Shown: in pieces, positions 2,731 through 9,994 of the stretch
Position numbering within the stretch: the first letter of the stretch is position 1
Layout: each line of letters begins with the position of its first letter
NCBI GenBank assembly: GCA_038087875.1
Contig: CM075977.1
Span: 35,030,001-35,094,000 of the forward strand
Origin: Malacoraja senta
Lineage: Eukaryota
Length of the DNA: 64,000 bases
Direction of reading: 5' to 3'
Program-made: the position numbers and the translations under genes
The notes under the pieces: generated by a model
Told to the model about the DNA's origin: nothing
Seen by the model: the letters and a program-made list of their open reading frames with translations, nothing else
Database searches by the model: none

Positions 2731-2819
2731 GAAGCTTGGGTTAAAAGGTTCAAAGGTATTTTATTGTCACGTGTACCAATTAAGGTACAGTGAAACTCGA
2801 TTTACCATACAGTCATACT

Positions 2820-3267
2820 TGTAATGGCCATTTGGCTTGTTTTGCGTGTCATTAATGATGGCATGTGTCTTTATGACGTATTCTTGGGCGTGTTTGGGGC
2901 TCTGTATCTTGCGCAGAAGCTTAGTTTTTAGTTTAGTTTGGAACGAGCCTGGAGAAGGTTTACTCTTCGACCATGCGAAGTGTAGCGGAGACACGAGGAG
3001 TTTTCTAATGTTTAAAGCAATAAGCTGGAGTTCGATGAAGATTATAGTAACGAGTCTGAAGAAGTTTGGATGTACCTTATTGTTTTCATCAACAATAAAG
3101 AATTTATTAATCAAAATACTGTGTTTTTGAAGACTTATCTGTGAAGAAGCTCTGAAGATCTCTGATGGTGAGCTCGCATGCGTATGGAGACATTCCTCTT
3201 AACCATGCTGTCCATTTAGCGGCTAGAGAGAGTAATCTCTTGAACGATATAAAAATCTGCTGCTACA
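2820..3267 (+). repeat. 5' LTR of the BEL/Pao element
   Basis: Direct repeat of 7199-7546 plus 8596-8722; begins TGT, ends ACA; AATAAA at ~3094. Confidence 0.92.
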
Positions 3268-3789
3268 TTAAGTCGAAGGAAACCTCCGGCAAAGGGGTAA
3301 ATACCAGTCTCAGAGATTGGGACAGAAGATTTGGCTAAGATCTCGGAGAGGTTTTGGCCAGAAGACCAATTCCAGCCGAGGAACTGAAGAAAATAGATCT
3401 CGGCCATAGAAGGCCTTGAGGTCTATCAACAGCATCGAGTCTGAAGACACATCACAGAAATTGTGAGTAAAAATCGATTATTATTCTTGGAATTTGAAGC
3501 TACAAGGTTTAGAAGAGCCAGAAGGTGTTTTTTCCCGTCTGTCTGGAGAAACGAGACTGACCTTGGATTGTTTGAATCTTTTGATAAACACGCATTCCTT
3601 TCGAATTATCATCATCTTTTAGCCCATGGATGTTGGAGAGATGTTCTCTAAAATATCAGTTTGTTATGGTTCTGAGTACATTTTTTTTAAATAGCCGCTC
3701 GATGTTTACATAAGGCTGGAGCAGAATTCAGAGAAGACTCTGTTCGTAAAATTTAAAGACTTGGCGATTTGCCAAGACCTCTTTAAAAT

Positions 3790-5528
3790 TATGGATCCAG
3801 AAGATGAAGAAAGAGCCGCACCTGAGGGACCACGAGGTGGTAATGAAAGACCAATTAGACAACTTAAACTCATGTATCGAGAAGAAACAGATAATTCACA
3901 AGCTGCCTGTTTGAAAGAAACCTAGAAGGAGAGAAACAAACTATGGAAACAGGTTACCAGATTAATTGAGAAACAGGTGAAATCTAATATGTACCAACTA
4001 TTGAACCTCTGCCAGGAGGTTGGCAAGAAACAAGATGTACTGCTGTGTTCACAGCCGTCTCGGGAAGAACGCAGAAGACATACCCAATGGGAAGAAGACA
4101 GGTATGAAGATATTCAATGGTTTCATGGGTAAGGCAGAGGAGTGGTTATCTGAAATTATACCACAACTTACGAGCTTAGTAGCTGGAAGTGCGAAGCAAC
4201 AAGGTGCCAGAATGGAAGATGAAAGTTCAAGCAGTGAAGAGTCTGAAAGTTCAGATGATGAGTCTCCTGCGAAAACCAAAGCACAACAAGGTTCGTACAG
4301 TGCGGTACCCCCTCCCAAAGTTCAGAATGGAAAAGCAGGCATGATCAAGAAGAAACCAGCACAGGAGTGAGTAAAATAGAAATCAGTGACTTGTCAGACG
4401 ACAGCTCAGACAGTAGTGATGAAGAGGCACCCCTAAAACCTGGCACAACAATTGCACAGAACAAAAGCTGGCCCCATGCTGGCCAAGGCGGCTGTTGCCG
4501 CTCAGAAGCCTGCGGCCAAGAAGGCCAGTACCAGCTTGGACAGCGAGTCCGATTCTGAAAGTACTGAAGAATCTTCAAGCGACGAAGAGCCTCAGTTGAA
4601 GACCCCCAGAGCCCAACTATGAATGGTAAAAGCCACGCTTTCATCACTGCCTGCAAAGTCTGCGGCCAAAAAAACCAACAGCAGCAGCAGCGGCAGCGGT
4701 AGCAGCCTAGATAGTTCAGGATATAAATCTGGTTCTTCAACCAGTTCGGTATCAAGGGCTTCTGCTCGATTGGGAGTTGAAGCTGATCTAGCTGATCTCT
4801 CAATAGAAGCGGATGCCATGAAGATGAAACATGAAATTGAGTGGAAGAAAGAAGAGATAGGAAGACAAAAAGAAGAGATAAGAAGACAAAAAGAAGAGAT
4901 GAGACAACGAGAAGAACAGATGAAAGAAGAGATGAGACAAGAAGAAGAAGAGCTGAGGCGACGAAAGGAACAACTGGAACTAGACACAAAGATGGCGGTG
5001 GCCAAGACAATGAAGGAGCTACCGGAAAGTGAGTGGTCAAGATGCAGTTCTAGAACATCGAAGGTGATGAACTCCGATTTGGGAAGAAAGATTGCTCGAA
5101 GTGATTTAGCAGTTGGATCCATTCCACAATCGAGGTCCACCGGATTTCATGGCTTTGAAAACCCATTGGAACAGAGGAAGATGGGTGAAACGTCATCTCA
5201 GCAAATGGGTGCTAGATCGAAACCAACTACTATTGGAGCGTCTGTGGATACTCGAGACAAACCAATAGCGGATCATGCTTGTCCGAGACCTGGTGCACAG
5301 ACTCAAGCAAGCCAATTTGAATCACAAAGGCTTGTTTATCAACAGGTGGTGCCAAGCCAAGGTTATCAGGATGAGTTATTGGCACTGTTGAATAGGCAAA
5401 CTGTATTCAACCAGATCATAGCTCAACAAAATACCTCTCTCATTCTACCACCAGCAGAAATTCCTACGTATGGTGGAGACCCTTTGCAGTATGAAGTTTT
5501 CACAAGGGCATCTTACCAGTACAGCTAA
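3790..5528 (+). pseudogene. gag: BEL/Pao gag region (frameshifted), including ORF 4623-5528, with an inserted NOLC1-like segment
   Basis: Ser-rich SSVSRASAR..EADLA..KHEIE coiled-coil, 21-bp EEIRRQK repeats, LPPAEIPTYGGDPLQYEVF (BEL gag/DUF1759-like); C-terminal zinc knuckles absent. Start coordinate approximate. Confidence 0.75.
4213..4720 (+). pseudogene. NOLC1: Captured intronless fragment of a Nopp140/NOLC1-like coding sequence
   Basis: Alternating acidic-Ser and K/A/P-rich tracts (EDESSSSEESESSDDESPAK..., DDSSDSSDEEAP..., KPAAKKAS..DSESDSESTEESSSDEEP) and the motif GSYSAVPPP, matching my recollection of PGPYSSVPPP in human NOLC1. Confidence 0.72.
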
Positions 5529-6815
5529 GGAACAGCAAGACGAAATCAGTGTTACAAACATGCTTTTCTGGATCACGGAAGTTCGACTACCTTTTGCACA
5601 GAAAACCTGACGAGAAGACTGAACATCACAGGAGAAGAGACTAAGATTCGATTACATACCATGACTAAAGATAAAGAGAGCAGGAGTCATTACATTACGA
5701 GTATGGAGATATCCAGTCTGGATGAAGATAATTTTATACCAATATCTGAATTGTTTACATATGGAACCATGCCTGTTGGTCGTCTGAAATAAATTCTAGT
5801 GTTGATCTACTTATCGGAACGAATGTTTTGAAGGCATTGGAACCTATACAGATTGTTAGGAGCCATGGACCGTATGCTATGAAAACCCAAATTGGATGGG
5901 TTATCTATGGCTCCTTGAAAAGGAACCATGAAAACGAGAATCAGAGGAACTATCCTACCATTGCTGTTAATCAAAGATCTACTGATAAATTAGAAAAGCC
6001 GGTGATGAAGCCATACCATTATGACTTCAAGGAAAGTACCAGCAAGGAATCTGAAGAGATGTCGAATGAAGAGTTGAAGTTCATGGATATTATGAACTAC
6101 TCAGTGAAAACTGACGGTCACTATTGTGTGGACTTACCTTTCAAACAAGAAAGTGTTAATCTGCCGAATAATCGTCGTATGGCAGAGCAACGTACCCAGA
6201 ATTTGTAACGCAAGTTTGACGAGAATACTACATTTCATGAAATAAGAATCTCTTTGAAGAATAATTTCTACATGGATGATTGCTTAAAATCCATGTCTAC
6301 TGAGCAGGAAGCAATTCTACCAGTAGAACATCTGACTTCTCTTTGCAATAAGGGAGGATTCACACTCTCCAAGTGGAACAGCGACAATTGTGAAAGCATT
6401 CCACTAGATGATAAAGCCAAAGAAACCAGAGAGTTGGATTTGAACTGAGACAATCTGCCAATGGAAAGAGCATTGGCAGTTACTAATGTTGTACAACTGA
6501 AATATGTTAACACAGAAGAAAATTCTGCAGATGAAGTTTCCAGAGAACTGACAGTGAACCGTTTCTTAAGCGAAAAGAGATGGATCAATGAACTAAAATC
6601 TCTGTGTAAGCCAGACAGAGAATGGCCAAAGCTCGAGCTGGGATTTGAAATCTCTGCTAATGATCCGGAAACTAAATCAAATCTAACGGTGAACTTTATT
6701 GCTAAAGATCCTGTTATTCTTTTGAAGGATTTTCACACTTCAACATAACTGTTACAACACATCCATGAGTTGCTCGGACATGGAGGAAGACGTTTCATGC
6801 TATCAAAGCTTTGGG
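5520..6815 (+). pseudogene. pol: BEL/Pao pol remnants (protease, partial RT/RNase H, integrase N-terminus), heavily deleted
   Basis: AFLDHGS, GPYAMKTQIGWVIYG, HYCVDLPFK, FYMDD, KYVNTEENSADEVSR and HELLGHGG, all within ~1.3 kb. Confidence 0.85.
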
Positions 6816-7009
6816 CTGTTATGTTTTGGACTATATACTGGGTATCATTCCTGATTTTAAGGGTTTGGTGCGCACAGCACGACTTTGAACTAAAACCAGC
6901 GTTTTAATAAGATTAATAATCAAGTTATGCTTGCTTCTAGAAGGCGAAAGTGAAGATGGAAGAGTCGATGAAGAATTCTGATTGCGAATATATAGTGCAT
7001 GCTATTTTT

Positions 7010-7084
7010 TCCTCGATAATATAGTGGTTAGTATCCCCGCTTGTCATGCGGTAGACCGGGGTTCAATTTCCCGACGAGGAGCCA
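7010..7084 (+). tRNA. tRNA-Asp(GTC)-derived sequence with encoded 3' CCA (probably a pseudogene in this copy), inside the BEL element
   Basis: 72-nt TCCTCGATAATATAGTGGTTAGTATCCCCGCTTGTCATGCGGTAGACCGGGGTTCAATTTCCCGACGAGGAG followed by CCA; cloverleaf with GTC anticodon; about 7-9 substitutions from the canonical vertebrate tRNA-Asp; T6 run at 7103-7108. Confidence 0.88.
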
Positions 7085-7198
7085 CGGGGTTCAATTCCCT
7101 GATTTTTTGCTTTTTGATATATGTTAAGCCTTCATGGCCACTTTTTTGATGTTTATTAATAATTGCCTCGTTATATGGTCGGATCAATTAGAGCCCGG

Positions 7199-8722
7199 TA
7201 TGGTGGCCATTTGGCTTGTTTTGCGTGTCATTAATGATGGCATGTGTCTTTAAATTTTAGACTGCCCGTTATATTGTGGGTGGGATTTATGACGTATTCT
7301 TGGGCGTGTTTGGGGCTATGTATCTTGCGCAGAAGCTTAATTTTTAGTTTAGTTTGGAACGAGCATGGAGAAGGTTTACCCTTCGACCATGCGAAGTGTA
7401 ACGGGGACACGTTTTATAATGTTTAAAGCAATAAGCTGTTCAATGAAGATTATAGTAACGTCGGAAGAAGTTTGGATGTACCTTATTGTTTTCATCAACA
7501 ATAAAACAATTATTAATCAAAAGACTGTGTTTTTGAAGACTTATCTTAGGTATGTTACAAAACTTACCTTCAGCGGCGCTGCAGTTCTGTCACTGCCCGT
7601 GTGCGCGACTTTGGCGCCTTTGAGAGGGGGGCGGGTTTAAAATGCGATATTTCGGCAGCCTGTTCTAAACGATCTTGAACAGGCTAAATAGTTGATGAAG
7701 AAAAATCGCTTCGACTGCCGTTTTATTAAGTTTATTAAAATTAGCGCTTTATAATTAAATTGTTGGAGTAAAATTAAAATCATCTTCAAATGCCATGAAC
7801 GCCGACAACGGGACGGATTTCACGCACGGGACAAGGCAAGGTACACCGTTTATTTTTTCATATAAACTTGCTTCTTAGGATGCCTTTAATAAAAATTTCA
7901 AGTTGCGAAAATGTGATTATTTAAATATACCAACCGGCAGTATTTTTGCTGCCGATATTGGGGTTTAATTCAGTGCAACCGCAGCGTTCCAAACCGGCGC
8001 GTTCCACAAAATCCCACTCGCAAGATGATTTAAATGGCCATTAATTTACAGGAATTAAACACTAAATTCCTTCCATTTGGCCTATAAATTAATGACAATG
8101 AGATTTAAAAATAATGTTATATTGTGAATTCTTGTGTGAATGTTATCTGGACACTTAGGCTTTTTAAAAATGTTAACTTTTTCTTAAGAAATGGATAGAT
8201 ATTGAGATCTAGTAATTGAATTTTGTAATTAGCTACAGTTGGGTAACTAACTAATTATATGCTTTAATTTCAGGTCATCCAAGTAAGGTTGTTTCATATT
8301 TGTTTCAGAATGCTTCAATCTATAATAACTGAAAATTTCATTAAGTTCTCTTAATTTTTAAGAAAGTTATGGGCTTTTGACTGTCCTTGATCACAGCTTT
8401 TGTGTTGTCAATGGAAAAGCAATAGGGAACAAGATGCTAATTTCCGAGTATGAAAATGGCCATAGCTTTTTTAATACTGAAGATATGAAAGTGAATTAAG
8501 TGTCAAATTAAACTTATTTTTATGCTTTATCTGATGGGATAAATTGCAGACTTGATTTTTTAAATCTCAAAATTTTGTAACATTGCTACTTATCTGTGAA
8601 GAAGCTCTAAAGGTCTCTGATGGTGAGCTTGCATGCATACGGAGACATTCCCCTTAACCATGCTGTCCATTTAGCGGCTAGGGAGAGTAATCTCTTGAAC
8701 GATATAAAAATCTGCCCCTACA
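7199..8722 (+). repeat. 3' LTR of the BEL/Pao element, interrupted at 7547-8588
   Basis: Homologous to 2820-3267 on both sides of the insertion; ends ...CCCCTACA followed by the TSD. Confidence 0.9.
7547..8588. mobile_element. Non-autonomous TIR DNA transposon (hAT- or P-like), ~1.04 kb
   Basis: TIRs TAGGTATGTTACAAAA / TTTTGTAACATTGCTA; CTTATCT duplicated at 7540-7546 and 8589-8595; the 5' LTR shows the empty site. Confidence 0.88.
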
Positions 8723-9994
8723 ATACTATAAAAAGCAACAAGACACACAACTACATAAAAGTTATCATAAATCCACCACAGCGGATTCGCCACATTTCTC
8801 ACTTTGATGGAAGGCAATAAAGTCTAATCTTCTTCATTTTTCATTCTCCCGCGGTCGGGGCAGTCGAACCATCCGCAGTCAGGGCAATCAAAGCTCCCAC
8901 ATCCGGCGATTGAAGCCCCCACGTTGGGGCGATCGAAGCTCCCATGATTGTGGCGGTCGAAGCTCCTGTGGCCTGGAGCTCCCGAAGTCGGTCCATAACC
9001 CTAAGCTCCACGACATTGAAGTTCGCAGGATCTCGCAGTTGTAGCTCCAAGGTCGATCCTCGACAGGGACCACCAGCTCCATGATGTTAAGTCCTGCAGG
9101 CTCCCGCGGTGGAGCTCCAGCAAAGGCTGCCAACTCCTCGATGTTACGCCGCAGTGCGGTCAGAGATACTATACGGAATAAAATCACTTCTCCGTCAAGG
9201 TAAGAGACTAAACAAAGTTTCCCCCGACCACCACCCTCCCCCCCCACACACACACACATAAAACAAAGCTAAAGAACACTAGAACATACATTTAACATAC
9301 TAAAAAACAACAAAGAAGGAAAAGGACGAGACAGACTGTTGGCGAGGCAGCCATTGCGGCACCACCCGGGTCAATCCTCTTTGTGACAACATAGGGCTCT
9401 GCTATGTGTTTCAGTTCCCCTGCACCCAAAGACGCATGGGTCAGGAGTCTGAGTACAGAATGACCTAGAGGCCATTTAACATCCTCATCCTGCTAAAATC
9501 TGTCTTACTTTTTGTAGGTCGGGGTCAGTTACAGAGGGGAAAAAAGACACTATCAGAAATAAATTAAAATCTAGCTATTTTTCCAAGTGTAACCTTGAAC
9601 GATGCTTTGTATGTTGCATCTAAAGAAATAGGCATGTGTTTGGAGTCATGCAGAATTTTGTTAGCCTTGTTCCTTCGCTTTGCTGACAATGAGGGGGTGC
9701 TTGTTGTCTTGACACCATGTTACTCAGCTCACTATCTCCTTCCTATACTGTTAATACTGGCCAAATTAAAGACACCATAAAATGGAGGATCCCTGCACTT
9801 GTCAGAATTGCTTAACCCTTATCAGCTGAAATTTACAGGCTTTGGATGGCGCGGGCCAGTCCAGGCTCAGACTGGTATGCAGGATGGTGAGGGGTCCAGG
9901 TGTTCTCCTGGTTTCTCCTAAATTGATAACATGTATAGCAGTTTTGCAAACAAACCCAAGATGCATCATTTTGATTGGATCGCTGCAAGGGCAT

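What the first reader, a model, noticed from the sequence alone, without database searches (positions are those of the whole stretch)
7010..7108. tRNA-Asp with encoded CCA inside the same LTR element, just before the 3' LTR
Seen: a full 72-nt tRNA-Asp(GTC) followed by CCA, then a 16-nt repeat of its own T-arm (cggggttcaattccct, 7085-7100) and a T6 run, about 90 bp before the 3' LTR. Established: eukaryotic tRNA genes do not normally encode CCA, so this suggests reverse transcription of a mature tRNA; T-runs terminate Pol III. Inference: either an RT template-switch capture or an element-borne Pol III unit (own primer, internal promoter or insulator). Stem mismatches suggest this copy has decayed.
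Basis: partly seen in the sequence, partly recalled or inferred. Interest (0 to 1): 0.7.

Follow-up and report, generated by a model that had tools for sequence, protein, structure and literature searches.

The report
Captured tRNA riding an LTR retrotransposon
A defective jumping-gene family in this animal genome carries a copy of a finished host tRNA that its sister families lack, most likely pasted in once by a reverse transcriptase and since carried along as a decaying passenger rather than used as the element's primer.

Summary
In detail: tRNA-Asp(GTC) at 7010-7081, CCA, a 19-nt repeat of its nt 48-66 and a T-run lie 92 bp before the 3' LTR of a non-autonomous BEL/Pao element (2820-8722). 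The cassette is a family trait: 30 of 30 copies found with a tRNA-free probe carry it, as do contigs of four coded organisms. None of 30 integrase-bearing sister elements has it; they show an empty T-run there. It starts at tRNA nt 1, ends in CCA and shares no flank with 16 host genes, so it was probably reverse-copied once from mature tRNA and then amplified. It does not look functional: it is no more conserved than its flanks, and about half the copies share stem- and B-box-damaging changes. It is unlikely to be the primer. The primer site does not start with TGG; it pairs with the element's own LTR and co-varies with it (232 of 240 cells paired), a Tf1-like self-priming signature that this scan noted before in other genomes. 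Which reverse transcriptase made the capture is open. Verdict: real, a new member of a known kind, modest interest.

The parts
2815..2819 (+). Target-site duplication ATACT, 5' copy
   Evidence: sequence
2820..3267 (+). 5' LTR, TGTA...TACA, 448 bp
2964..2971 (+). LTR segment complementary to the primer site (predicted self-primer), 5' LTR copy
3272..3279 (+). Primer-site position, 4 nt after the LTR; no TGG; pairs with and co-varies with the LTR segment
3900..6960 (+). Broken and internally deleted gag/protease/pol remnants of BEL/Pao type (boundaries approximate); only the last ~45 residues of the integrase end remain
7005..7009 (+). T5 run upstream of the tRNA (part of the pre-existing T-run target)
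7010..7081 (+). tRNA-Asp(GTC) copy, nt 1-72, 7 differences from the host gene
7082..7084 (+). Encoded CCA, intact in 53 of 65 copies
7085..7103 (+). Sense repeat of tRNA nt 48-66 (T-arm, second B box)
7104..7108 (+). T5 run downstream; present as the T-run of the empty site in sister families
7201..7546 (+). 3' LTR, first part (2-nt deletion after the TG); holds the primer-site complement at 7380-7387
7547..8588 (.). Later 1042-bp insert with 16-bp terminal inverted repeats and a 7-bp duplication (7540-7546 and 8589-8595); DNA-transposon-like, also found elsewhere
   Evidence: sequence; other copies
8596..8722 (+). 3' LTR, second part
8723..8727 (+). Target-site duplication ATACT, 3' copy
   Evidence: sequence

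Best explanation
The cassette is a copy of mature host tRNA-Asp that sits in a T-run of the 3' untranslated region of one non-autonomous BEL/Pao family, likely put there once by reverse transcription and likely carried since as a passenger. Shown: family-wide presence, empty site in sister families, start at nt 1, CCA, no host flanks, no extra conservation. Inferred route: a reverse transcriptase whose new DNA ended in A's opposite the T/U-run copied tRNA nt 66 back to 48, jumped to the CCA end of a whole tRNA, copied it to nt 1 and returned to the T-run, adding about four T. I put the element's own enzyme inside its particle slightly ahead of a LINE enzyme (about 55 to 40, my estimate). The element is predicted to prime from its own LTR RNA, so it would need no tRNA of its own.
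For: Presence: 29 of 30 loci found with the tRNA-free probe 6500-6830 hold the tRNA within the locus; the 30th holds it beyond a 3.2-kb insert. Absence: 0 of 30 loci found with an integrase-region probe of a sister element hold it; 24 keep both flanks and 23 of these have no room for it; 0 of 30 DUF5641 loci and 0 of 20 longer sister stretches hold it (these sets overlap). Empty copies form their own clade, 100/98. Mature origin: of 25 exact matches to the T-arm/acceptor motif, 16 are host-type genes without CCA or shared flanks and 9 are element copies. No constraint: non-CpG diversity 0.099 in the tRNA, 0.075 and 0.104 in the flanks, p 0.38; shared changes G43T in 31, C60T (B box) in 33, G18T in 15 of 65 copies; 28 of 65 have neither B box intact. 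Not the primer: best duplex partner of the primer site in the whole element is the LTR segment, -23.7 and -23.4 kcal/mol against -18.4 for the tRNA arm; 232 of 240 cells paired in 30 copies, with matched changes in 4 of 4 and 6 of 6 variant copies, while the cassette end did not change in the four copies where it could be read.
Against: The insertion replaced no element sequence, whereas LTR-mediated captures in Tan et al. 2016 replaced part of the element and mostly showed microsimilarity (median 6 bp); here at most 1 nt fits at each tRNA junction, which suits a LINE- or repair-type insertion as well. The diversity test is mostly decay after insertion and is weak for short-lived selection. 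One copy (L220) holds a tRNA body identical to the host gene, so early copies could have been transcribed. The covarying copies are related, so the Fisher p-values overstate independence. The LTR pairing was clear in 2 of 5 sister elements (10 and 11 bp) and not in 3. The tree bootstrap had not settled.
Confidence: 0.72

Rival explanations
1. Same passenger outcome, but the copy was made by a LINE reverse transcriptase or during break repair in the chromosome, into an element that later became the master of the family. This overlaps the best explanation and differs only in the enzyme.
For: Pure insertion with about four extra T and no loss of element sequence. A precedent in print: a double tRNA with CCA and a 26-nt duplication inside a Culex gypsy LTR (PMC3286476, passages).
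Against: No 8-30-nt duplication and no A-rich target or tail as described for L1 and tailless retropseudogenes (PMC5322556, passages); no free-standing tRNA-Asp-CCA copy among 25 exact motif matches.
Confidence: 0.35
2. The cassette worked, at least early, as a Pol III unit or TFIIIC site that helped the family spread (internal promoter, insulator, packaging aid).
For: Two B boxes and a T-run in the least-changed copies; one host-identical tRNA body; the family is numerous (710 and 973 first-look candidates, not copy numbers) and kept the cassette in all sampled copies.
Against: Shared A-box, B-box and stem damage in up to half of copies; four copies lost the CCA part by deletion; the T-run predates the insertion; a T5-6 run directly upstream should hinder Pol III starts (established knowledge, not tested).
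Confidence: 0.14
3. The cassette encodes the element's own primer: a Pol III transcript ending in the T-arm repeat plus oligo-U anneals to the primer site.
For: Partial complementarity exists (-13.5 to -18.4 kcal/mol) and would leave a 2-nt gap to the LTR. An element-encoded tRNA in the nematode BEL element Cer7 is recalled, not verified (papers not held).
Against: Sister families with the same kind of primer site have no cassette; primer-site changes are matched in the LTR and not in the cassette; no TGG.
Confidence: 0.05

Closest known systems
LTR-mediated retrocopies (Tan et al. 2016, PMC5131818; passages read)
   Same: Cellular RNA copy inside an LTR element that goes on retrotransposing as a non-autonomous unit; one listed case is in a mosquito BEL element.
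   Different: Cargo there is mRNA ('tRNA' has 0 hits in that text), element sequence is replaced and junctions share about 6 bp; here a whole tRNA with CCA is added with nothing lost.
tRNA insertions in retroviral DNA: HITME in HIV-1 and tRNA-Gly in MLV and HIV DNA (as cited in PMC12220202; passages read; originals not seen)
   Same: Retroviral reverse transcriptases can copy non-primer tRNAs, tRNA-Asp among them, into the viral DNA.
   Different: Those are single laboratory or cell-line events, partial or at element ends; this one became fixed in a germ-line family and spread through several species.
cqgypsy_1 of Culex (PMC3286476; passages read)
   Same: CCA-ended tRNA copies inside an LTR retrotransposon with a flanking duplication.
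   Different: Two different tRNAs at the LTR/primer site, 26-nt duplication, likened to the Twin SINE; Gypsy, single assembled copy.
Cassandra TRIM (5S rRNA in the LTR) and Cer7 (recalled; no paper seen)
   Same: A Pol III gene sequence carried by an LTR element.
   Different: Those are recalled as conserved or functional cargo; this cassette shows no constraint.
Tf1/Tj1 self-priming (PMC4600332; passages read)
   Same: Primer site complementary to the element's own LTR.
   Different: Described for Ty3/gypsy; the ICTV profile gives host tRNA-Arg or tRNA-Gly priming for Bel/Pao (PMC8742986, whole text). The transcript start is not known here.

Membership tests
BEL/Pao LTR retrotransposon | LTRs of 0.2-1.2 kb with TG...CA ends and a short TSD | tested here: met
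   448-bp LTR, 5-bp TSD
BEL/Pao LTR retrotransposon | BEL-type gag and pol domains | tested here: met
   ~80% DNA identity to DUF5641-bearing loci; DUF1759 E 0.0048 in copy L176 and aspartyl protease E 0.0017 in the window, both under cut-off
BEL/Pao LTR retrotransposon (autonomous) | Complete integrase | tested here: not met
   69 of 80 cassette-family loci hit the 200-residue probe, none before residue 144; 11 gave no hit
BEL/Pao LTR retrotransposon | Primer site complementary to a host tRNA 3' end | tested here: not met
   No TGG after the LTR; longest perfect match to tRNA-Asp is 4 nt; other tRNAs were not screened one by one
Retrocopy of a mature tRNA | Starts at nt 1, ends in CCA, no gene flanks | tested here: met
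Functional Pol III tRNA gene | Intact cloverleaf, A and B boxes, purifying selection | tested here: not met
   7 changes in the window copy including C60T; no excess conservation
Functional Pol III tRNA gene | Pol III/TFIIIC occupancy and transcript | not testable with these tools
   needs ChIP and raw small-RNA reads
L1-type or tailless retropseudogene | 8-30-nt TSD, A-rich target or tail, single locus | tested here: not met
   about four extra T only; family-wide
LTR-mediated capture (Tan et al.) | Cargo between LTRs, amplified with the element | tested here: met
LTR-mediated capture (Tan et al.) | Junction microsimilarity and replaced element sequence | tested here: not met
   at most 1 nt at the tRNA ends, nothing replaced
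Tf1-type self-priming | Primer site pairs with own LTR and co-varies | tested here: met
Tf1-type self-priming | Pairing segment at the transcript 5' end, released by RNase H | not testable with these tools
   transcript start unknown

The most novel reading that the evidence does not exclude
A self-priming BEL/Pao family that needs no tRNA captured an intact, terminator-equipped tRNA-Asp gene with a doubled B box and scattered it to hundreds of sites before several species split, seeding live Pol III genes or TFIIIC insulator sites, some still active.
Probability: 0.12. Interest if true: 0.68.

Novelty: new member of a known kind. Interest (0 to 1): 0.36.

Why it matters
It is a germ-line-fixed fossil of a reverse transcriptase jumping onto the CCA end of a tRNA, with filled and empty alleles both on hand, and it is a shared marker across related species. 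It inflates tRNA-Asp counts: ARAGORN of 30 and 22 of 30 sampled loci as tRNA genes against 16 host-type loci found by motif. The side result, primer-site/LTR covariation, adds one more genome to the case that some BEL/Pao elements prime on their own RNA, against the ICTV description.

Tried and rejected
One-off retrocopy after integration: rejected (30 of 30). CCA inherited from a host gene: rejected for the 25 motif matches. CCA-end priming: rejected. T-arm/oligo-U priming: considered (note 2), then ranked low. Short form as the ancestor: four true short copies (L048, L053, L059, L086) nest among long ones and differ from each other, so deletion between the repeats is more likely. In that tree L144 was mislabelled long (it is empty) and L055 short (it is long). 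The 117 exact junction matches are not 117 insertions: 9 of 10 fetched copies from unplaced contigs share flanks and look segmentally amplified. Expression: no RNA holder listed; four guessed-RNA runs were laid but are contigs that may be DNA, so no use is made of them. One search's pairing table was off by one and is replaced; crashed; the loci5 lines's ARAGORN and BLAST checks were invalid and are replaced. Papers not held. PMC3118150 and PMC554778 had no hits for tRNA or primer-site terms. Ten searches (listings only, except papers cited) showed no report of such a cassette or of BEL/Pao self-priming; subscription journals and Repbase are not covered, and no supplements were read.

Full report
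Observation. ARAGORN and Rfam both call the tRNA at 7010-7081. CCA follows, then a sense repeat of tRNA nt 48-66 (7085-7103, 17 of 19 identical to the host gene) and a T-run to 7108. A T5 run also lies directly upstream. The window copy differs from the host gene at 7 of 72 positions.

The element. Direct repeats and the sequence define LTRs at 2820-3267 and 7201-8722 with the TSD ATACT. The 3' LTR is split by a 1042-bp insert with terminal inverted repeats. The LTRs are about 94.7% identical; other copies give 88-98%. The interior holds broken gag, protease and pol remnants. Pfam support in the family itself is weak, but the 3' end is about 80% identical to loci that carry the BEL/Pao integrase-end domain DUF5641. 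Of 80 cassette-family loci, 69 hit an integrase probe and only in its last 36-57 residues, so the family is non-autonomous.

Family distribution. All 40 scored matches to 6830-7210 are essentially full length, but that query held the tRNA. With a tRNA-free probe, 29 of 30 loci hold the tRNA and the last holds it beyond a 3.2-kb insert. An integrase-region probe from a sister element gave 30 loci with no tRNA; 24 keep both flanks and 23 of those show a plain T-run. The closest sisters have T6 where the family has T5, cassette, T5. Empty copies form one clade (100/98) apart from cassette copies (two labels were wrong and are corrected under Tried and rejected). The terminator-like T-run is therefore older than the cassette. 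Fourteen DNA-type runs from eight coded organisms hold 28-35% of the sampled words. In the four laid (organisms B, C, E, G), contigs bridge both cassette junctions and empty-site joints also appear. One of the eight may be the window's own species; the capture still predates the split of several species.

Origin. Of 25 exact matches to the T-arm/acceptor motif, 16 are host-type genes with other trailers and unrelated flanks, and 9 are element copies. The cassette starts exactly at nt 1 and ends in CCA, which eukaryotes add after transcription (established knowledge; also stated in PMC3315495, passage). A mature tRNA template follows. The order tRNA-CCA-nt 48-66 in sense is what a reverse transcriptase leaves if it copies nt 66 to 48 and then jumps to a CCA end; this is inference. 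Retroviral enzymes do copy stray tRNAs (PMC12220202) and LTR elements capture cellular RNA (PMC5131818). Against the LTR route, nothing was replaced and junction similarity is at most 1 nt. Against the L1 route, the target is T-rich in sense and there is no 8-30-nt duplication (PMC5322556). The enzyme stays open.

Function. In 65 copies (left out: exact duplicates, L051, the split L033, eight segmentally amplified copies, and the empty sisters) non-CpG diversity is 0.099 in the tRNA and 0.075 and 0.104 in the flanks, p 0.38. CCA is intact in 53. Changes shared by many copies hit the anticodon stem (G43T, 31), the B box (C60T, 33), the D-loop GG (G18T, 15) and the second B box (20 and 23); 28 copies have neither B box intact. 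Masters with a damaged cassette thus kept spreading. Against this, one copy has a host-identical tRNA body, and decay after insertion limits the power of the test.

Primer. The LTR is followed by TTAA and GTCGAAGG, not TGG. I first considered pairing with the T-arm repeat and U-tail, but the best partner in the element is a segment of the LTR. Of 33 5' ends examined, 30 had both parts; 232 of 240 cells pair, a C-G pair is A-T in 4 of 4 variant copies and a G-C pair is A-T in 6 of 6. In those four copies the cassette end is unchanged. Two of five sister elements show 10- and 11-bp perfect pairing with different letters; three do not. This works like Tf1/Tj1 self-priming and departs from the ICTV profile. 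It is a prediction: the transcript start was not mapped. I reached it before looking up the scan's notes, which list the same signature in other genomes; those notes are not counted as support.

Verdict. The feature is real and old: a mature tRNA-Asp captured once by a defective BEL/Pao lineage and spread with it. The evidence favours a passenger. It is a new member of a known kind, interest 0.36.

Noticed in passing
window 3272-3279 with 2964-2971 and 7380-7387; L191, L202: Primer site pairs with the element's own LTR, with matched changes within the family and in two sister families: Tf1-like self-priming signature in BEL/Pao.
   Followed up: yes
window 3268-3331; L165-L167, L170-L172: The 63-nt unit that starts at the primer site is tandemly repeated, up to about seven times, in some copies.
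   Followed up: no
window 7547-8588; also L123, L135, L138, L160, L162: A 1042-bp non-coding insert with 16-bp terminal inverted repeats and a 7-bp duplication, found in several BEL elements.
   Followed up: partly
window 4235-4705: A serine/lysine/acid-rich coding-like segment present in a subset of copies (41 matches from 44 candidates) and absent from most; possibly a second captured host RNA. The parent was not identified.
   Followed up: partly
L165-L168, L170-L174 (unplaced contigs of G000): One short element copy is multiplied with its flanks, several times per contig: segmental or satellite-like amplification.
   Followed up: partly
L220 (G000:C2:172749875): An element copy whose 72-nt tRNA body is identical to the host gene, followed by CCC.
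   Followed up: partly
L092-L100 (G000 C5 and C14): Host tRNA-Asp genes in repeated clusters, some beside tRNA-Met and tRNA-Lys.
   Followed up: no
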